DNA of 64,000 bases from Methylotenera sp. Lineage in GTDB: Bacteria > Pseudomonadota > Gammaproteobacteria > Burkholderiales > Methylophilaceae. The translations under genes were made by a program, and so were the position numbers. The DNA is taken from positions 41,921 through 105,920 of the forward strand of contig NZ_JAQSDC010000047.1 in NCBI RefSeq assembly GCF_029945705.1, given 5' to 3'. Under the pieces are notes generated by a model, which was not told the DNA's origin, did not search any database, and worked only from the letters and a program-made list of their open reading frames with translations. Shown here piece after piece: positions 2,156-8,309 of the stretch; the first letter of the stretch is position 1; the number at the start of each line of letters is the position of its first letter.

Positions 2156-3520
2156 CTAATCAATAATCAGCTTAACATTCTCCGATTTAGTTCTAACCTT
2201 TAGCCACTCAGTAATTCTATAGCGCTCACTATTACTTATTTTACTGGATGCCGTTGCGTTTAATACGATTAGGTTGTCCTTGAGATCAGAGCTGCCAGCT
2301 TTCCACTGCACTGCGTCAGAAAATAAGACTTCTCTAATCTGCGGATATTGCGCATGTAATTCAGCTGCCATGTTTTTCCATTCAGCTCTGTTTGCAGAAG
2401 TTTTTTGTAATTCGGATTGCAAATTCTGAATGGTTTTATTTTTTTCTTCTAAGCTGTAGAGGTTATCTTTGTATAACTCGCTCACGATATTAGATTTTAA
2501 GGCGGTAATATCAACCGTATTGTCTTTCGATTGGTGAACGATGAGTGAGGCACCAGAAAGGCCGTAACTCTCCATTCGAGCCTCAACGCCGTTTAGTTCT
2601 TTTTTGCTAATTAAATCACCAATTAATGTCACTTCTATTTGTTTTTTTGTCGCGTCAATATTGCGCTCTGTGAGATGGGCATCTTTAAATGTTAATTCTT
2701 TGCTAATAAACTCCCTAGCTTTTGAACTAAATACCTCTTGTTTTACTAATTTGACCGCAAGGTAGACGCTTGGTAACATCGTCAACAAAACTATCGCACT
2801 AAGCGCACGGCGAACACGTATTTCAGTATTTTGATTAACAAATGACTTGCGTGTAGGATTAAGAACCCAAATAATCAGCACAGCAGCAAAGGCAATAAAT
2901 ACGCAGTTGATAGAGTATAAATAGAACGCACCAAAGAAGAAATTCCAATTCCCATTTGCCAAACCATAACCGGCAGTACATAGTGGCGGCATCAAGGCTG
3001 TTGCAATAGCAACACCAGGGATAATGTTGGTTTTTTCAGCTCTAGTGGCACCAATTATGCCTGCAAGCCCACCAAAAAGAGCAATCAGTACATCCCAAAT
3101 AGTAGGTGTGGTTCTTGCTAATAGCTCTGACTGCGCATCAGACAGAGGCGTTAATAGAAAGTAAAGTGTTGAAACCAGTAAGCTAATCAGAGTAGCAATA
3201 CCAAGATTTCTAAATGATTTTCTGATGAGCTGAGTGTCATATATACCTGCGCCATAACCGACACCCATAATGGGCCCCATGAGTGGTGAAATGAGCATGG
3301 CGCCAATAATAACTGCTGTTGAGTTAACATTTAAACCAATAGATGCAACAAAAATTGCAAATATTAATACCCATAAGTTAGTGCCTCTAAGCTCGACACC
3401 AGCTCGGATACTCGTATCAATTTGCTCATCATCAGCCTTATCTTCAATTAAGCTAAAACGATGTCTTGTGGCAGTCATATAACGCTTGAATAGCGATGTT
3501 GTTAAGTTTGCGTCTGACAT
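2156..3520 (-). CDS. DUF389/TIGR00341-type membrane protein
   Basis: IASIGLNVNSTAVIIGAMLISPLMGPI and IPGVAIATALMPPLC motifs, multiple TM helices, soluble C-terminal region. Confidence 0.85.
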   Translation of the reverse strand: MSDANLTTSLFKRYMTATRHRFSLIEDKADDEQIDTSIRAGVELRGTNLWVLIFAIFVASIGLNVNSTAVIIGAMLISPLMGPIMGVGYGAGIYDTQLIRKSFRNLGIATLISLLVSTLYFLLTPLSDAQSELLARTTPTIWDVLIALFGGLAGIIGATRAEKTNIIPGVAIATALMPPLCTAGYGLANGNWNFFFGAFYLYSINCVFIAFAAVLIIWVLNPTRKSFVNQNTEIRVRRALSAIVLLTMLPSVYLAVKLVKQEVFSSKAREFISKELTFKDAHLTERNIDATKKQIEVTLIGDLISKKELNGVEARMESYGLSGASLIVHQSKDNTVDITALKSNIVSELYKDNLYSLEEKNKTIQNLQSELQKTSANRAEWKNMAAELHAQYPQIREVLFSDAVQWKAGSSDLKDNLIVLNATASSKISNSERYRITEWLKVRTKSENVKLIID

Positions 3521-3712
3521 AAAAACCTTATTTAAGTAATGCGTAAGTTATTAACTCTCCATTCCAATTTTGACATTATGATATGTCTATCGAAACGGGT
3601 GAAGTCCATACACTCGAGTCAAGTTGATTGGAGTGCTCCCATCGTGAACCATGTTGCTGATAGCGCTTTATGAAGCAACTCATGCAGTATTTTACTAATA
3701 CCCATCAAAAAT

Positions 3713-4009
3713 CTAAAGCTTAGGAAAGTCTGTAGTTGATTTCTCTATATGTGTTGGCTGCTGTTTCATGGTATTTTCTAGGTCTGAGGCATATTTTTTG
3801 GACTGCTTAGTGGCACGTTTGCTGCGTAAAACAGTTGGTAATACAAGTAGTGCACCAATGAGTATGCCTAATATTAACGAGATGATGATGGCTAGGGCAG
3901 AAACCGTCTGAACAGACCACGTGATGAAGATTAACTCAACAGGATGCATATTCTGGAATGTAAATATTGTAGCTAATACTGTAAGTATAGTTAATATAAT
4001 GTTACGCAT
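3713..4009 (-). CDS. LapA/DUF1049-like small membrane protein
   Basis: TM-FTFQN-x-V-x-L-x-F-x-x-W followed by a second TM and basic tail. Confidence 0.7.
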   Translation of the reverse strand: MRNIILTILTVLATIFTFQNMHPVELIFITWSVQTVSALAIIISLILGILIGALLVLPTVLRSKRATKQSKKYASDLENTMKQQPTHIEKSTTDFPKL

Positions 4010-4157
4010 AAATTTACTATCTCAAAGTTTCCCGAAGCTATTTTGATTATAGCACCACAAACAGCTGGGTGCTTTGCAGCCTAATTTTCAGAATTCTAAA
4101 CTTTAACAAATAATTTTAATAAATAACTAGGGGGAGTTTAGCTAGAATTGTTACGAG

Positions 4158-4190
4158 AAAAAAAAGGGTGCCCTAAAAGATAGGGCACCC
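4158..4190 (-). terminator. Rho-independent terminator of the EF-hand gene
   Basis: Minus strand: GGGTGCCCTA-TCTTT-TAGGGCACCC then T8. Confidence 0.9.
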
Positions 4191-4282
4191 ATTAAAACTT
4201 GTAACTCTAGGGGGAGTGAGTTACAAGTGCTCAAACACTTACTTAATACTGAAGCTCTTTCTCAAGAATTAGAAATAACGAT

Positions 4283-4672
4283 CTAGTTCGTAGTTGTTGC
4301 TGGAGCAGCCTCTGTAGTTTTGGCAGCAGACGCAGTTTTGTAGCTCGTAAACTCATCAGCTGATAGCATGCCATCATGATTTATATCTGCTGCATCAAAT
4401 TGAGTCGCTAACGCTTTATCTTTTACAGCCTCTTTTAGAGATATATTTCCATCTTTATTGGCATCTAATTTGTTAAAGTCATCATTTGAAGGCGCCTTTG
4501 CAGACGTACTAGGTTCCTTCATATCTACAACTTTAACTTCTGCAGTTTTAATCGAGTCTTTTAACGCAGCTGCGTTATCAGCCAATGCTAAATTATTAAG
4601 TCCTGCCATCAATAACAAGGCAACTACACTTGCTGAAATAGGGCGAATGATAGAATTTGTATTTAATTTCAT
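4283..4672 (-). CDS. Secreted small EF-hand (Ca2+-binding) protein
   Basis: Signal peptide ending ALA; two EF loops DANKDGNISLKE and DINHDGMLSADE; AGGAG RBS at 4681-4685. Confidence 0.85.
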   Translation of the reverse strand: MKLNTNSIIRPISASVVALLLMAGLNNLALADNAAALKDSIKTAEVKVVDMKEPSTSAKAPSNDDFNKLDANKDGNISLKEAVKDKALATQFDAADINHDGMLSADEFTSYKTASAAKTTEAAPATTTN

Positions 4673-4719
4673 GGATATTGCTCCTAATGCTAATTAAAAA
4701 GATCTTGCCCTATTATATT

Positions 4720-4735
4720 AGCGATTATCGTGCCA
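4720..4735 (-). promoter_or_regulatory. sigma54 (-24/-12) promoter upstream of the EF-hand gene
   Basis: Minus strand TGGCACGATAATCGCT vs consensus TGGCACG-N4-TTGCW; GG/GC spacing correct, one mismatch. Confidence 0.8.
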
Positions 4736-4753
4736 ACTTTTATTTTTCAATAA

Positions 4754-4766
4754 AATCAATTGCTTA
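4754..4766 (+). promoter_or_regulatory. IHF binding site between enhancer and sigma54 promoter
   Basis: AATCAATTGCTTA is an exact match to WATCAA-N4-TTR. Confidence 0.65.
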
Positions 4767-4798
4767 TGAATTTTTGTGAATTTGTATAAAAAATAATA

Positions 4799-4816
4799 TG
4801 TCGCCTATGCACGACG
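4799..4816. promoter_or_regulatory. GlrR/QseF-type enhancer box (proximal)
   Basis: TGTC-GCCTATGCAC-GACG; one mismatch to TGTC-N10-GACA. Confidence 0.65.
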
Positions 4817-4860
4817 CATAGGGAGTGATTTAGGTAACTGATTGAAATGGTTTAAGTTTT

Positions 4861-4882
4861 TATGTCGCGTTTAAGCGACATA
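4861..4882. promoter_or_regulatory. GlrR/QseF-type enhancer box (distal)
   Basis: TA-TGTC-GCGTTTAAGC-GACA-TA; perfect TGTC-N10-GACA with extended symmetry. Confidence 0.75.
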
Positions 4883-4886
4883 TTAC

Positions 4887-6257
4887 TTAATCGGAGGATT
4901 CGTCTTGGCTAGCGTTCTTGAATGTACGTGCTTGAATATTGTGACGCTCTAATAATCTGTAAAATTCAGTACGGTTTCGTTGAGCAAGTCTTGCAGCTTG
5001 GGTCACATTACCTTCTGTTGTTTTAAGTATATTAATCAGATAATTAAATTCAAATTGCTGGCGAGCAACATCCAGCGGAACCACTGAGTTGCTGCCTTCT
5101 TGTAATGCTTTTTGTACTAAATTGACTGGAATGACTTGGGTAGTCGCAAGCACTACGGTTTGCTCAACAATATTTTGTAGTTGTCTTACATTGCCTGGCC
5201 AAGGCGCTGTAATCAGTGTTTCTATGGCATCTGGTGCAAAGCTATGTAATTTCTTCTTGTATTTCAGACTAAACACTTGCAGAAAATGATTCGCTAAAAG
5301 ACTAACATCTTCACGACGATTAGCCAAGGATGGAATTTCTAAGCTAACCACATTGATGCGATAAAACAAGTCTTCACGAAAGCGACCTTCCTTCATCTCA
5401 TTGACTAAGTTGCGGTGCGTCGCTGAAATTAAGCGTAAATCTATGTCTATATTAGTCGTGCTGCCTACGGGGCGTATTACGCGCTCTTGCAATGCGCGCA
5501 AGACTTTAACCTGCAAGGCTTGAGGCATGTCGCCAATCTCATCTAAGAATAATGTACCGCCTTCAGCACTTTGAAAAAGACCGACATGGTTATTGATAGC
5601 GCCAGTAAAGGCGCCTTTGTTATGACCAAATAACTCTGATTCAAGTAGATTTTCTGGAATGGCGCCACAATTAATTGCCACAAAAGGTCTTGCGCTTCGT
5701 GCGCTGTAGCGATGAATTGCACGTGCCAGCAACTCTTTCCCAGAGCCACTTTCTCCATGAATAAACACGCTAGCATCGGTATTAGCAACGAGCTTGGCTT
5801 GGCCAAGCAGGCTTTCCATTGTTGAGCTGCGCGTTAGAATATCCGCACGCCAACTATCATCTTCATTTGAGGCGGTATGAGTCTGCGTGCCATTCAAACG
5901 CAGTGCAGACGCGACTTGTTGCAATAGCGCTTGGCTATCAAAAGGCTTAGTTAAAAAACTAAATACACCACGCTGAGTTGCATTAACGGCATCTGGTATA
6001 GAGCCATGCGCTGTTAACATGATAACGGGCAGGCTAGGGTGAGATTGTTGAATGGCGTCCAGCAATGCCATGCCATCCATTGCGGGCATGCGTAAGTCGC
6101 TAATCACCAAATCAGGCCGCTGTAGCATGATGGCCGACATGGCCTCAGCACCGTTGTTTGCGGCAACTGTCGCATAACCAGCAGCCTTCAAACGCATGCT
6201 AATGAGCTTGAGTATGTCTTTGTCATCGTCAACGATTAGAATGTTTGGAGTTTGCAT
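4887..6257 (-). CDS. glrR: sigma54-dependent response regulator GlrR/QseF
   Basis: Receiver domain, Walker A GESGSGKE, GAFTGA loop, WPGNVRQL, C-terminal GNVTQAARLAQRNRTEFYRLL typical of GlrR. Confidence 0.88.
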   Translation of the reverse strand: MQTPNILIVDDDKDILKLISMRLKAAGYATVAANNGAEAMSAIMLQRPDLVISDLRMPAMDGMALLDAIQQSHPSLPVIMLTAHGSIPDAVNATQRGVFSFLTKPFDSQALLQQVASALRLNGTQTHTASNEDDSWRADILTRSSTMESLLGQAKLVANTDASVFIHGESGSGKELLARAIHRYSARSARPFVAINCGAIPENLLESELFGHNKGAFTGAINNHVGLFQSAEGGTLFLDEIGDMPQALQVKVLRALQERVIRPVGSTTNIDIDLRLISATHRNLVNEMKEGRFREDLFYRINVVSLEIPSLANRREDVSLLANHFLQVFSLKYKKKLHSFAPDAIETLITAPWPGNVRQLQNIVEQTVVLATTQVIPVNLVQKALQEGSNSVVPLDVARQQFEFNYLINILKTTEGNVTQAARLAQRNRTEFYRLLERHNIQARTFKNASQDESSD

Positions 6258-6270
6258 AGTCTTGTAGTGC

Positions 6271-6879
6271 TTACGGTTTAATCACAGGCTTGCTAATCGC
6301 TTTGCTATCACGATCACTAATCGTTTTTTCAATATTCTTTAAATCATTTAGTTTTTTATCTAAAGCATCATATTTTTGTTGTAAAGCTTCTAACTTTTGT
6401 TGATTCAAATCGAGCTTTTTCAAGTCATCTTTATTTTTTTGAGATTGCTTAATATCGTCAAATACGTACTCATAAAACAAACTTGTTAATGCAGACTCTG
6501 TGGTATTTAGGCTGTTCCCTTGAAGTAAGTCTTGCAGAAGGATTTGAGCCTTTGCTGTGTCACGTAGACGACTGCTCGGTAATGAAAGCATAATGGCAAG
6601 TTTGATGCGCTCTGTTAGATCTAACTTATTTTCTACAAGCGCACGATTCGCTTCATTGAATGATTTTCGTTGCGCATCCAAAGTATCGTTTGAAAAACGG
6701 TCAATAAAAAGCAATAAACTATTCACGCGGTCTTGTTTTGAAGCGGCCGTTTCTATTTTTTTAATCTCTAACACTTTAGTCGCGCTAGGTTCTTTATCTG
6801 AGGGTTTATTCGTCACACTTACGCATGCGCCTAGCGATAGTACTAAAACACTTAAACTGATGAATACTTTGATGCTCAT
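6271..6879 (-). CDS. QseG/YfhG-like lipoprotein
   Basis: Lipobox LGAC, helical body, C-terminal coiled coil (LNDLKNIEKTISDR); lies between the kinase and regulator as qseG does. Confidence 0.7.
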   Translation of the reverse strand: MSIKVFISLSVLVLSLGACVSVTNKPSDKEPSATKVLEIKKIETAASKQDRVNSLLLFIDRFSNDTLDAQRKSFNEANRALVENKLDLTERIKLAIMLSLPSSRLRDTAKAQILLQDLLQGNSLNTTESALTSLFYEYVFDDIKQSQKNKDDLKKLDLNQQKLEALQQKYDALDKKLNDLKNIEKTISDRDSKAISKPVIKP

Positions 6880-8309
6880 TTAATCTCCAATTTAGGAATG
6901 CTAATAATAAAATGCGCGCCTTGACTTGACTCGGCAAGTTTGATGATGCCCTGATGCGCATTCACTAAATCTTTTGCGATGGTAAGCCCTAAACCACTGC
7001 TACCGATCAAGCTTTTATGCAATGTGTTACCCCGATAAAACGGGTCGAATAGTTGCGCTGGATCAAGCTCTGCCAGGCCTGGGCCATTATCTTTGACATC
7101 AATCATCCAAGTTTCTTTTTCAAATCTTGTCTGCACTGAAATTAAGCCTTGTTGCGGGGTGTACTTTACAGCGTTTGAAATAAGATTGTCTAAAATAATG
7201 GTCAATTTTTCTTCATCGGCAATAACAGTCTTAACATTGTAGTTAGTTTCTATTGACAGCTCTTTATTTCTGATACTGAGCGCATGGGCATGAATCACTT
7301 TATTAATGACTACAGACAAGTCTAATTTCTCTAATGTTAATTTGGCTTCAATTGATTCCATGCGCGTGTAATTAAGCAAATTTTCTATCATTCTCTGCAA
7401 GCGGATGCTGTTTTCTCGCAGAATCAAAGTAATCTCAGACTGCTGCGCTGACAGCGTGCCACCAATGCCATCGTATAATAATTCAGTGGCCTCTCTTATT
7501 GCGGTAAGTGGTGTTTTAAGTTCGTGCGATACGTGCCTTAAAAACTGCTGTTTTTGCTCATCTACTTCTTTAAGTTCGGTTCGCAACCAATCTAAGCGCT
7601 GTCCGAGAAGGCGCAGATCACCGGGCCCATCAATGGCAATGGGTTGGTCATATTCTCCTTTACCTAGATGCCTAATGGCCGCATCCATGCGCTTAATAGG
7701 TCTAGCGAGTAAGTAAGTAATTGCACCAGCCACTAATAATGCAAGTGGGATAAGTACTAAGCTTTGCATAAACAGTTTTTTTTGGGTGTGTTGTACGGTG
7801 AGCGTCAGTTGGCTGGATGCAGCATCTATTGCCAAATTGTTTTCCTGCACAATGGATTCTACCAATTGTGTGATTTGACTAAAGCTATTTAAAAAGCCTA
7901 AATCTGCACTATTGGTTGACTTGCTGCCTAGAATGGATTGATGTAATTGAGACGTTTTTGCGCTCAATAACTGTAGATTTTTATGCTGAGATGGGCTATT
8001 AGCCAAAGCTTCAAGCTGAGAAATGGCGTCATCAAACTTAATGTGGGCTTGATTATAGTTATTGAATAGAACATTGTCTTGAAGTACAAAATACTGCTTA
8101 CTACTACGTTCCATTAAGCTTAGTTGTTCTTGTAAGACGCGTCCAGAGCGCGTGGTGATAACCGCGTTTGAAATAGTAATTTGACTTTGCTTTGCTAGGT
8201 GATCAAAAGCAATATTGGCATTCGCGAATACCCATAACAATGGCACAATTGCGAAGGCAAAGCCTACTAATAACAGCTTTAAAAATGAGCTTGGGTACTG
8301 AAATCGCAT
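6876..8309 (-). CDS. glrK: Sensor histidine kinase GlrK/QseE
   Basis: Two TMs, HAMP, FLRHVSHELKTPL H-box, N/G1/F/G2 boxes; N-terminus YPSSFLKLLLVGF. Confidence 0.85.
   Translation of the reverse strand: MRFQYPSSFLKLLLVGFAFAIVPLLWVFANANIAFDHLAKQSQITISNAVITTRSGRVLQEQLSLMERSSKQYFVLQDNVLFNNYNQAHIKFDDAISQLEALANSPSQHKNLQLLSAKTSQLHQSILGSKSTNSADLGFLNSFSQITQLVESIVQENNLAIDAASSQLTLTVQHTQKKLFMQSLVLIPLALLVAGAITYLLARPIKRMDAAIRHLGKGEYDQPIAIDGPGDLRLLGQRLDWLRTELKEVDEQKQQFLRHVSHELKTPLTAIREATELLYDGIGGTLSAQQSEITLILRENSIRLQRMIENLLNYTRMESIEAKLTLEKLDLSVVINKVIHAHALSIRNKELSIETNYNVKTVIADEEKLTIILDNLISNAVKYTPQQGLISVQTRFEKETWMIDVKDNGPGLAELDPAQLFDPFYRGNTLHKSLIGSSGLGLTIAKDLVNAHQGIIKLAESSQGAHFIISIPKLEIK

What the first reader, a model, noticed from the sequence alone, without database searches (positions are those of the whole stretch)
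4283..8309. GlrK/QseG/GlrR rewired: complete GlrR-IHF-sigma54 promoter drives an EF-hand protein instead of GlmY
Seen: directly after the glrR stop lie two TGTC-N10-GAC(A/G) boxes (4863-4880, 4799-4816), an exact IHF site (4754-4766) and a -24/-12 element (4720-4735) pointing at a 129-aa secreted EF-hand gene. Known: in enterobacteria GlrR/QseF binds TGTC-N10-GACA and activates the sigma54, IHF-assisted promoter of the sRNA GlmY. Inference: the same promoter architecture outputs a periplasmic Ca2+- or possibly lanthanide-binding protein. This is notable in a probable methylotroph, although the loops lack the Pro typical of lanmodulin.
Basis: partly seen in the sequence, partly recalled or inferred. 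Interest (0 to 1): 0.75.

Follow-up and report, generated by a model that had tools for sequence, protein, structure and literature searches.

The report
GlrR-controlled secreted EF-hand protein gene
In this Methylotenera genome, an envelope sensor system that in E. coli switches on a small RNA appears to switch on one gene for a small exported calcium-binding-type protein, and the same wiring recurs in many unrelated bacteria, hinting at an older, undescribed job for the sensor.

Summary
The composite site is unique in the 2.93-Mb genome. The three upstream genes are relatives of GlrK(QseE), QseG and GlrR(QseF). RpoN and both IHF subunits are present; GlmY is absent.

In 36 of 36 Methylophilaceae loci the operon is followed by two boxes 64-66 bp apart, IHF-like sites, a -24/-12 element 81-82 bp after box 2, and the EF-hand gene. 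Within the genus the EF-hand gene occurs only in the 7 genomes that have glrR, and in none of the other 18.

I found small secreted two-EF-hand genes beside 11 of 49 glrK-glrR loci from other families, sometimes in the position glmY holds in E. coli. Other loci have BON, glycine-zipper or OpgG genes there. "Rewired" is therefore probably backwards: envelope proteins look like the common output and GlmY like an enterobacterial speciality.

The lanthanide idea is not supported. The protein fails every lanmodulin criterion tested except short loop spacing.

The mRNA also ends in a conserved, covarying hairpin with a C-rich loop, which could be a 3'UTR sRNA.

No transcript data could be obtained, so regulation is inferred. 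I found no published description of this output.

The parts
6876..8309 (-). glrK/qseE-like sensor histidine kinase, 477 aa
   Evidence: 31% identity over 441 aa to E. coli GlrK, including the periplasmic part, E 5e-66. Pfam HAMP, HisKA and HATPase_c. The MERS motif holding the QseG-contacting Arg (R70 in PMC12691602) is kept, and R73 is Lys. The stop codon overlaps the next start (ATGA).
6271..6879 (-). qseG-like lipoprotein, 202 aa, lipobox LGAC
   Evidence: It lies between the kinase and regulator genes. No Pfam or NCBIfam hit. BLASTP against E. coli QseG matches only a 16-aa C-terminal stretch (E 0.07). A profile of 50 such proteins against QseG gives hhalign probability 88.6%, E 2.6e-6, over the C-terminal 47 columns. 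That is the part of QseG shown to bind QseE (PMC12691602).
4887..6257 (-). glrR/qseF-like sigma-54-dependent response regulator, 456 aa
   Evidence: Best NCBIfam hit is GlrR PRK15115 at 622.7 bits. This is below the 763-bit cut-off but 200 bits above the next family. 58% identity over the full length of E. coli GlrR, with D54 aligned to D56, GAFTGA present, and RNRTEFY.LL shared in the C-terminal HTH. Pfam Response_reg, Sigma54_activat and HTH_8.
4863..4880 (-). distal GlrR-type operator (box 1), TGTCGCTTAAACGCGACA
   Evidence: GTC and GAC are invariant in 20 aligned Methylophilaceae promoters.
4835..4847 (-). IHF-like site between the boxes, TTTCAATCAGTTA, one mismatch to WATCAANNNNTTR
   Evidence: A conserved block in alignment A5. 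E. coli glmY has an equivalent site between ABS2 and ABS3 (PMC3045617).
4799..4816 (-). proximal GlrR-type operator (box 2), CGTCGTGCATAGGCGACA
   Evidence: It starts 64 bp after box 1 and 81 bp before the -24 element. These spacings are 64-66 and 81-82 bp in the relatives.
4754..4766 (+). IHF site, AATCAATTGCTTA, exact consensus
   Evidence: The exact consensus is present in 17 of 36 related loci. In the others I inspected the same position carries a close variant such as AAACAATAAGTTA.
4720..4735 (-). sigma-54 -24/-12 element, TGGCACGATAATCGCT; predicted start near 4709
   Evidence: TGG..A and GC are invariant in A5. rpoN is present in the genome.
4283..4672 (-). gene for a 129-aa exported protein with two EF-hand loops 14 residues apart; SD AGGAG at 4681-4685
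   Evidence: Pfam EF-hand families above cut-off. The 32 orthologues aligned keep LD.N......SLKEAVKD...L...FD..D...DG.....E. In the AlphaFold2 model, residues 63-120 have pLDDT 71-87 and superpose on canonical EF-hand pairs.
4197..4228 (-). 3'UTR hairpin: 11-bp stem with the C-rich loop ACUCCCCCUA
   Evidence: Fold z-score -5.9. 19 of 20 predicted pairs show compensatory changes across 25 loci. The covariance model hits only sites directly behind EF-hand genes, with one copy in this genome.
4166..4190 (-). intrinsic terminator of the EF-hand transcript
   Evidence: 10-bp stem with 7 G-C pairs, followed by T8. It covaries across relatives.

Best explanation
The segment is one self-contained signalling module. 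The operon glrK(qseE)-qseG-glrR(qseF) encodes an inner-membrane kinase, an outer-membrane-type lipoprotein partner and a sigma-54 enhancer-binding response regulator.

Directly behind it lies the regulator's only recognisable target in this genome. Phosphorylated GlrR would bind the two TGTC-N10-GAC(A/G) operators. IHF would bend the DNA at the two flanking sites. The GlrR ATPase would then open the sigma-54 complex at TGGCAC-N5-TCGC, starting a monocistronic RNA near 4709.

That RNA encodes a Sec-exported protein of about 98 aa with one compact EF-hand pair, most likely binding Ca2+ in the periplasm. It ends in a conserved hairpin with a C-rich loop followed by a terminator.

My reading is that the system is an envelope or divalent-cation homeostasis circuit. 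The EF-hand protein would be its effector, possibly also a feedback partner of the sensor in the way ZraP and CpxP act on their kinases. The 3' end may add a small-RNA output.

Shown here: the sequence elements, their homology to the E. coli system, their conservation and their co-occurrence. Inferred: binding, sigma-54 and GlrR dependence, export, metal binding and physiological role.
For: - Homology to E. coli GlrR, GlrK and QseG, including the interface residues defined in PMC12691602.
- GlrR binds TGTCN10GACA and needs sigma-54 and IHF at glmY (PMC3045617).
- The composite site is unique in the genome.
- rpoN, ihfA and ihfB are present. GlmY is absent, and the control search found it in E. 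coli.
- 36 of 36 Methylophilaceae loci keep the operon, two boxes, IHF-like sites, the -24/-12 element and the EF-hand gene, with fixed spacing.
- Within the genus, the EF-hand orthologue is present in 7 of 7 genomes with glrR and in 0 of 18 without it.
- One relative (G018) has two tandem EF-hand genes, each with its own boxes and promoter.
- The same output class lies next to glrK-glrR in 11 of 49 loci from other families. Other loci have BON, glycine-zipper or MdoG genes there.
- EF-hand Pfam hits and an EF-hand-pair fold.
- The 3' hairpin covaries and is exclusive to these transcripts.
Against: - The start site and the dependence on RpoN and GlrR are predictions.
- The regulator scores below NCBIfam's GlrR equivalog cut-off, 622.7 against 763 bits.
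- Box 2 departs from the strict consensus by one base.
- The first EF loop is degenerate (D.N.DK or D.NGNT) in about half of the orthologues. Two-site Ca2+ binding is therefore not universal in the family.
- The N-terminal 60 residues of the model are low-confidence.
- Export is judged from the sequence only.
- Nothing here shows what the kinase senses.
Confidence: 0.72

Rival explanations
1. The main regulatory product is an RNA rather than the protein. The conserved 3'UTR hairpin with its C-rich loop, plus the terminator, would be released as a small RNA that base-pairs with G-rich ribosome-binding sites. The GlrR output would then be an sRNA here too, as in E. coli, and the EF-hand ORF would be a co-passenger. 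The cpxP mRNA and its CpxQ sRNA are a known parallel.
For: - The hairpin and terminator are conserved across Methylophilaceae, with compensatory changes in 19 of 20 pairs and a conserved CCCCU(U)AG loop.
- The covariance model finds the element only directly behind EF-hand genes, including both copies in G018 and the G016 and G017 loci, which were not among the 25 training sequences.
- C-rich tracts just before the terminator also occur in EF-hand 3'UTRs of distant families.
Against: - The ORF is itself strongly conserved, with 16 invariant columns in 32 sequences. It is not a mere carrier.
- No processing or RNA-abundance data exist.
- No Rfam family matches; the best hit is below its gathering score.
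- The only long complementary site I found at a start codon, in front of a transporter-like membrane protein gene on contig C36, was not tested for conservation.
- The hairpin could simply stabilise the mRNA.
Confidence: 0.3
2. The EF-hand protein is a lanthanide-binding protein, a "half-lanmodulin", serving lanthanide-dependent methanol oxidation. The GlrK/GlrR system would then be part of the lanthanide response of this methylotroph.
For: - The organism's nearest relatives are labelled Methylotenera.
- The two loops are 14 residues apart. The profile aligns with lanmodulin 6mi5 without a gap across both loops, while canonical EF-hand pairs need an insert of about 10 residues.
- There is a weak NCBIfam LanM hit, E 1e-5.
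- In one relative, the next gene downstream of the EF-hand gene resembles, by eye, a PQQ methanol dehydrogenase. I did not test this.
Against: - LanM scores 25.6 bits against a 135-bit cut-off.
- There are two loops, not four. Loop position 2 is Ala or Ile, not Pro. Loop position 9 is Ser, not Asp.
- The model matches canonical EF-hand pairs at 2-2.5 A rmsd but lanmodulin 8fns at TM 0.15.
- The same gene class sits behind GlrR-type promoters in many other families with G+C from 44 to 74%, which argues for a general role.
- 18 of 25 genomes of the same genus lack the gene.
Confidence: 0.05
3. The resemblance to GlrR sites is incidental. The promoter would be activated by another of the genome's enhancer-binding proteins, and the palindromes would serve mainly as weak terminators of the glrK-qseG-glrR operon.
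For: - The genome encodes at least five other NtrC-family activators.
- The terminator scan lists box 2 as a 5-bp hairpin followed by a T-rich run.
Against: - Both palindromes keep exactly the TGTC/GACA ends, while their centres and 3' flanks vary across 36 loci. That pattern fits a protein-binding site, not a stem.
- The spacing to the -24 element is fixed.
- The boxes follow the EF-hand gene when it lies upstream of glrK in other taxa, and they are duplicated with the second EF-hand gene in G018.
- Presence and absence match glrR exactly within the genus.
Confidence: 0.05

Closest known systems
glmY (and glmZ) promoters under QseE/GlrK-QseG-QseF/GlrR in Enterobacteriaceae (PMC3045617, PMC6075780, PMC12691602)
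   Same: - The same three-gene operon order.
- The regulator is 58% identical, with the recognition-helix segment shared.
- The same operator consensus, TGTC-N10-GACA.
- Two operators 63-64 bp apart (E. coli ABS2 and ABS3 at -197 and -134).
- IHF-like sites on both sides of the proximal operator.
- A sigma-54 -24/-12 promoter.
   Different: - The output is an mRNA for an exported EF-hand protein, not GlmY. No GlmY is present in this genome.
- The target lies downstream of glrR, not upstream of glrK.
- There are two operators instead of three.
- The proximal operator lies 81 bp from the -24 element, against 107 bp in E. coli.
- The promoter scan found no overlapping sigma-70 promoter here.
- QseG is alike only in its C-terminal, kinase-binding part.
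ZraS/ZraR with ZraP (from my own knowledge: a sigma-54 two-component system whose adjacent target encodes a periplasmic Zn-binding protein that feeds back on the kinase)
   Same: An NtrC-family sigma-54 activator and its kinase lie next to a single small periplasmic metal-binding-type protein gene that the activator switches on. ZraR is among the related NCBIfam hits.
   Different: ZraP has a different fold and binds a different metal. There is no lipoprotein partner. Feedback by the EF-hand protein is only a hypothesis here.
CpxAR-cpxP-CpxQ (from my own knowledge: an envelope-stress system whose target mRNA encodes a periplasmic modulator and yields a 3'UTR sRNA)
   Same: An envelope two-component system has a neighbouring small periplasmic protein gene whose mRNA ends in a conserved structured 3'UTR.
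   Different: That system uses a sigma-70 promoter and an OmpR-family regulator. Release of an sRNA is not shown here.
Lanmodulin LanM (NCBIfam NF053806; PDB 6mi5, 8fns)
   Same: An exported small protein with short spacing between adjacent EF loops, found in a methylotroph.
   Different: This protein has two loops instead of four, no Pro at loop position 2 and Ser rather than Asp at position 9. It scores far below the family cut-off, and the predicted fold does not superpose on lanmodulin.
Other periplasmic bacterial EF-hand proteins, e.g. Caulobacter CaBP (PMC13171946) and P. aeruginosa EfhP (from my own knowledge)
   Same: Sec-exported small EF-hand proteins linked to stress adaptation.
   Different: Their regulators are different (an ECF sigma circuit in Caulobacter). 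No sigma-54 or GlrR link has been described for them.

Membership tests
GlrR/QseF (NCBIfam PRK15115) | Receiver, sigma-54 AAA+ (GAFTGA) and HTH_8 domain architecture | tested here: met
   Pfam Response_reg, Sigma54_activat, AAA_lid_14 and HTH_8. GAFTGA and the D54 phospho-acceptor align with E. coli.
GlrR/QseF (NCBIfam PRK15115) | Score above the curated equivalog cut-off | tested here: not met
   622.7 bits against a 763-bit cut-off. GlrR is still the best family by 200 bits over NtrC. This fits a distant orthologue.
GlrR/QseF (NCBIfam PRK15115) | Encoded as the third gene of a kinase-lipoprotein-regulator operon | tested here: met
   Gene order and overlapping or near-abutting ORFs. The same order is seen in E. 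coli and is reported as widespread (PMC12691602).
GlrR/QseF (NCBIfam PRK15115) | Binds TGTC-N10-GACA upstream of a sigma-54 promoter | not testable with these tools
   The sites are present, unique in the genome and conserved. The recognition-helix segment is shared with E. coli. Binding itself needs an EMSA or ChIP.
QseE/GlrK | Two-TM kinase with a periplasmic helical sensor bearing the QseG-contacting Arg, then HAMP-HisKA-HATPase | tested here: met
   31% identity over 441 aa, including the sensor region. The MERS motif (R70) is kept and R73 is Lys. Domains. No NCBIfam GlrK model appeared among the best 25 hits.
QseG/YfhG | Lipoprotein encoded between kinase and regulator, with the C-terminal helix that binds QseE | tested here: inconclusive
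   A lipobox LGAC is present and the gene position is right. The C-terminal L..IEK....R matches the L209, E213, R214 and R219 interface of PMC12691602. hhalign gives 88.6% probability over 47 columns. There is no family hit, and pairwise BLAST gives only E 0.07.
glmY-type sigma-54 promoter | GlrR operators, IHF sites and a -24/-12 element in register | tested here: met
glmY-type sigma-54 promoter | Drives a GlmY/GlmZ-family sRNA | tested here: not met
   The next feature is a 129-aa ORF. Rfam finds no GlmY in the region or in the genome.
EF-hand pair (Pfam PF13202, PF00036, PF13499) | Two 12-residue D-x-[DN]-x-[DN]-G-x-[ILV]-x3-E loops, each flanked by helices | tested here: met
   All three Pfam models score above their cut-offs. 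Foldseek matches canonical EF-hand pairs with probability 0.97-1.00 and rmsd 2-2.5 A.
Lanmodulin | Four EF loops with Pro at loop position 2, and a family score above cut-off | tested here: not met
   Two loops, with Ala and Ile at position 2. 25.6 bits against a 135-bit cut-off. TM 0.15 to 8fns.
Lanmodulin | Selective picomolar lanthanide binding | not testable with these tools
   This needs metal titrations.

The most novel reading that the evidence does not exclude
QseE/GlrK-QseG-QseF/GlrR would be, ancestrally and in most lineages, a sigma-54 circuit for periplasmic divalent-cation and outer-membrane homeostasis.

- Its original direct output would be a short-spaced two-EF-hand periplasmic protein. 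BON, SlyB-like glycine-zipper and OpgG proteins would be alternative outputs.
- The EF-hand protein would also report Ca2+ back to the QseE-QseG sensor complex.
- Its mRNA would carry a C-rich-loop 3'UTR sRNA.
- The enterobacterial GlmY output would be a later replacement of this protein-plus-RNA output.
Probability: 0.2. Interest if true: 0.8.

Novelty: new variant of a known kind. Interest (0 to 1): 0.6.

Why it matters
QseEF/GlrKR is studied almost only in enteric bacteria. There it controls GlmY, rpoE and virulence, and what the kinase responds to is still debated. A 2025 structural paper concludes that QseG keeps QseE largely "on" (PMC12691602).

That paper shows the three-gene cluster is widespread in Beta- and Gammaproteobacteria and Acidithiobacillia but treats the flanking genes as non-conserved. 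The evidence here points the other way. The flank holds the system's direct target. That target is repeatedly a small exported EF-hand protein or another envelope protein, and in this genome it is the only recognisable one.

This gives a concrete, testable lead on the system's physiological role: calcium or envelope integrity. It also suggests a simple single-output organism in which to study the system.

The conserved 3'UTR element adds a candidate sRNA tied to the same signal.

Tried and rejected
- **Lanmodulin in the whole genome.** The search failed because the tool looked for the NCBIfam accession in another library. The protein-level LanM test was enough.
- **Lanmodulin-like fold.** Rejected by Foldseek.
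- **GlmY-like RNA.** None in the region or the genome. Folding E. coli GlmY beside the 3'UTR element showed no obvious likeness.
- **Overlapping sigma-70 promoter, as at E. coli glmY.** A TATAAT follows the -12 element, but the only good -35-like hexamer (TTGGCA) is 13 nt away. The promoter scan lists nothing there.
- **Targets of the C-rich loop.** A genome scan gave one 9-10-nt complement at the ribosome-binding site of a transporter-like membrane protein gene at C36:127683. It is a single hit, I did not check its conservation, and I do not rely on it.
- **Literature.** Five searches found no paper describing GlrR/QseF targets outside Enterobacteriaceae, or any sigma-54-driven EF-hand gene. 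The library lacks most subscription journals.
- **Regulators at 50-53% identity without a GlrK neighbour.** These have an HPt-like gene next to them. I set them aside as a different subfamily.

Full report
**What is there.** On the minus strand the window carries three tightly packed genes at 8309-4887. They encode a 477-aa histidine kinase, a 202-aa lipoprotein whose start overlaps the kinase stop, and a 456-aa sigma-54-dependent response regulator.
- box 1, TGTCGCTTAAACGCGACA (4880-4863);
- box 2, CGTCGTGCATAGGCGACA (4816-4799);
- an exact IHF consensus (4754-4766);
- TGGCACGATAATCGCT (4735-4720).

Next come a 37-nt leader with AGGAG and a 129-aa ORF (4672-4283). The ORF has a signal-peptide-like N-terminus and two canonical EF-hand loops. 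An intrinsic terminator lies at 4190-4166.

**Is it more than chance?** The assembly is 2.93 Mb with 42% G+C. It holds only 10 strict TGTC-N10-GACA sites, against about 40 expected from composition. The only two boxes lying within 150 bp of each other are these. Of 55 strict -24/-12 matches, only this one has boxes within the 300 bp upstream. The composite site is therefore unique, and by this criterion the regulator has a single recognisable target.

**Identity of the three genes.**
- *Regulator.* Its best NCBIfam family is GlrR, at 622.7 bits. The next family, NtrC, scores 422 bits, and the curated GlrR cut-off is 763. The protein is 58% identical to E. coli K-12 GlrR over the full length. 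The phospho-acceptor Asp, GAFTGA and the recognition-helix segment RNRTEFY.LL are all conserved.
- *Kinase.* It is 31% identical to GlrK over 441 residues, including the periplasmic sensor.
- *Lipoprotein.* It has no family hit. Pairwise, it matches QseG only in 16 C-terminal residues. A profile of 50 such middle-gene products aligns with the QseG C-terminus at 88.6% probability.
- *Link to published work.* A 2025 cryo-EM study shows that this C-terminal part of QseG (L209, E213, R214, R219, K220) binds the four-helix sensor of QseE (R70, R73). It also shows that qseE-qseG-qseF clusters are widespread in Beta- and Gammaproteobacteria and Acidithiobacillia (PMC12691602). Here the motif L..IEK....R and the kinase's MERS arginine are kept.
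- *Accessory factors.* rpoN (438 bits), ihfA and ihfB are present. No GlmY is found, and the control search found it in E. coli.

**Conservation.** Names of related contigs place the window in Methylotenera, family Methylophilaceae.
- *Across the family.* All 36 Methylophilaceae loci that encode a relative of the EF-hand protein have glrK-lipoprotein-glrR upstream. In the few loci cut at a contig end, only the part still present could be seen. Two boxes lie 64-66 bp apart, with an IHF-like site after box 2 and a -24/-12 element 81-82 bp after box 2.
- *Footprint.* An alignment of 20 promoters shows invariant GTC/GAC in both boxes, invariant TGG..A/GC, and the Shine-Dalgarno sequence. It also shows a second conserved IHF-like block between the boxes (TTTCAATCAGTTA, 4847-4835).
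- *Comparison with glmY.* IHF-like sites on both sides of the proximal operator are what is described for E. coli glmY. There ABS2 and ABS3 lie 63 bp apart (PMC3045617).
- *Within the genus.* Only 7 of 25 genomes have the GlrR orthologue. The same 7, and none of the other 18, have the EF-hand orthologue.
- *Duplication.* One relative has two tandem EF-hand genes, each with its own boxes and promoter.

**Beyond the family.** In a sample of 300 genomes of the GTDB class, 58 have a regulator at least about 50% identical.
- *Sample.* After fetching the flanks, 49 loci also had a GlrK-like kinase beside the regulator.
- *EF-hand outputs.* In 11 of these 49 loci, a small secreted protein with two EF loops in the same loop-14 residues-loop layout lies next to the operon. 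Eight of the 11 show both a box and a -24/-12 match under my patterns.
- *Position of the EF-hand gene.* It lies downstream of glrR in seven loci. It lies upstream of glrK in four. In two of those four it has the same orientation as glrK, which is the position glmY has in E. coli.
- *Other outputs.* Elsewhere the promoter faces a BON-domain protein, glycine-zipper (Rick_17kDa_Anti) membrane proteins, MdoG/OpgG, lipoproteins, or proteins that by eye resemble Pal/OmpA. The named families are all envelope proteins.
- *Earlier notes of this scan.* Notes read after I had made these observations describe the same pattern in at least seven other genomes. They are not independent proof, but they agree.
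- *Conclusion on direction.* The "rewiring" is therefore not a peculiarity of this methylotroph. The protein output looks like the common state and GlmY like the enterobacterial exception.

**The protein.**
- *Conservation.* The 32 aligned orthologues keep LD.N......SLKEAVKD...L...FD..D...DG.....E. In about half of them the first loop is degenerate.
- *Model.* AlphaFold2 gives a confident C-terminal domain (residues 63-120, pLDDT 71-87) after a low-confidence linker.
- *Fold.* The domain superposes on canonical EF-hand pairs at 2-2.5 A but on lanmodulin only at TM 0.15.
- *Lanmodulin criteria.* The short loop spacing is lanmodulin-like, since the profile aligns with 6mi5 without a gap. The number of loops, the residues at loop positions 2 and 9, and the family score (25.6 against 135 bits) all fail.
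- *Verdict.* Together with the occurrence of the same gene class in other families with G+C from 44 to 74%, this makes the lanthanide reading unlikely.

**An unexpected extra.**
- *Structure.* The 3'UTR is better conserved than its surroundings. It forms an 11-bp hairpin (4228-4197) with the loop ACUCCCCCUA, followed by the terminator.
- *Covariation.* Across 25 loci the stem sequence changes completely (CTTGTGA, CCTACAA, CCTGCAA, TTGTGGC) while pairing is kept. Compensatory changes occur in 19 of 20 pairs, and the loop keeps CCCCU(U)AG.
- *Distribution.* A covariance model built from these loci finds the element once in this genome. In relatives it finds it only directly behind EF-hand genes, including two genomes not used to build the model.
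- *Distant families.* C-rich tracts before the terminator also appear in EF-hand 3'UTRs of distant families.
- *Interpretation.* This fits a 3'UTR-derived sRNA or an mRNA-stabilising element. I cannot tell which.

**Mechanism and limits.** The most likely working is as follows. GlrK, with its lipoprotein partner, phosphorylates GlrR. GlrR binds the two operators, IHF bends the DNA, and sigma-54 polymerase starts near 4709. The product is a periplasmic EF-hand protein acting in envelope or cation homeostasis, perhaps feeding back on the sensor as ZraP and CpxP do in their systems.

The sequence elements, their homology, conservation and co-occurrence are shown. Binding, dependence on RpoN and GlrR, export, metal binding and the signal are inferred.

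**Novelty.** Five literature searches found GlrR/QseF targets described only for glmY, glmZ and rpoE in Enterobacteriaceae. They found no sigma-54-driven EF-hand gene. I class this as a new variant of a known kind. The signalling system and the promoter architecture are known. The output class is undescribed but widely conserved, and it bears on the open question of what this system is for.

Noticed in passing
window 4157-4233 (minus strand): A conserved 3'UTR element of the EF-hand mRNA: an 11-bp hairpin with a C-rich loop, then a terminator. It covaries strongly and occurs only behind EF-hand genes in the genus. It could be a 3'UTR-derived sRNA or an mRNA stabiliser.
   Followed up: yes
window 4127-4137 and 4207-4217 (minus strand): The 11-mer ACTCCCCCTAG occurs twice in the window (0 expected): once in the hairpin loop and once about 30 nt beyond the terminator. 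The 10-mer CTCCCCCTAG within it occurs at one further place in the genome (contig C29).
   Followed up: partly
L002 (handle G018), reverse strand, about 3020-4368: This close relative has two tandem EF-hand genes. Each has its own pair of boxes, -24/-12 element and 3' hairpin.
   Followed up: partly
L005 and L006 (handles G017, G016), between glrR and the boxes: An extra gene for a 136-156-aa secreted protein with no Pfam hit lies on the opposite strand. It has a -24/-12-like TGGCAT(A/G)GATCATGCA pointing away from the same box pair, so the palindromic operators may serve two divergent sigma-54 promoters there.
   Followed up: no
own genome C43:33099 (minus strand) and C55:4971 (plus strand), outside the window: Two paralogous secreted proteins fuse the same kind of short-spaced EF-hand pair to a BON domain. 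In another family the GlrR-type promoter drives a BON-only protein. This links the two domain types.
   Followed up: partly
L147, L151, L156 (other families): L147 and L156 have a box pair plus a -24/-12 element downstream of glrR. L151 has a box pair, but my pattern found no -24/-12 match. In all three, no obvious ORF follows before a ybgC- or tolQ-like gene. This could be a short ORF, an sRNA or control of tol-pal.
   Followed up: no
L003 3744-4253 (handle G001): In this relative, the gene converging on the EF-hand gene looks by eye like the C-terminal part of a PQQ-dependent methanol or alcohol dehydrogenase. I ran no family search on it, and the window has no such neighbour.
   Followed up: no
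window 3713-4009 (minus strand): The next gene downstream encodes a 98-aa membrane protein with a LapA (LPS assembly protein A) domain, another envelope function beside the module. I did not check whether this neighbour is conserved.
   Followed up: no
own genome C36:127667-127685: The sequence TCTAGGGGGT at the ribosome-binding site of a transporter-like membrane protein gene is complementary over 9-10 nt to the 3'UTR hairpin loop. It is a single hit and its conservation was not tested.
   Followed up: partly
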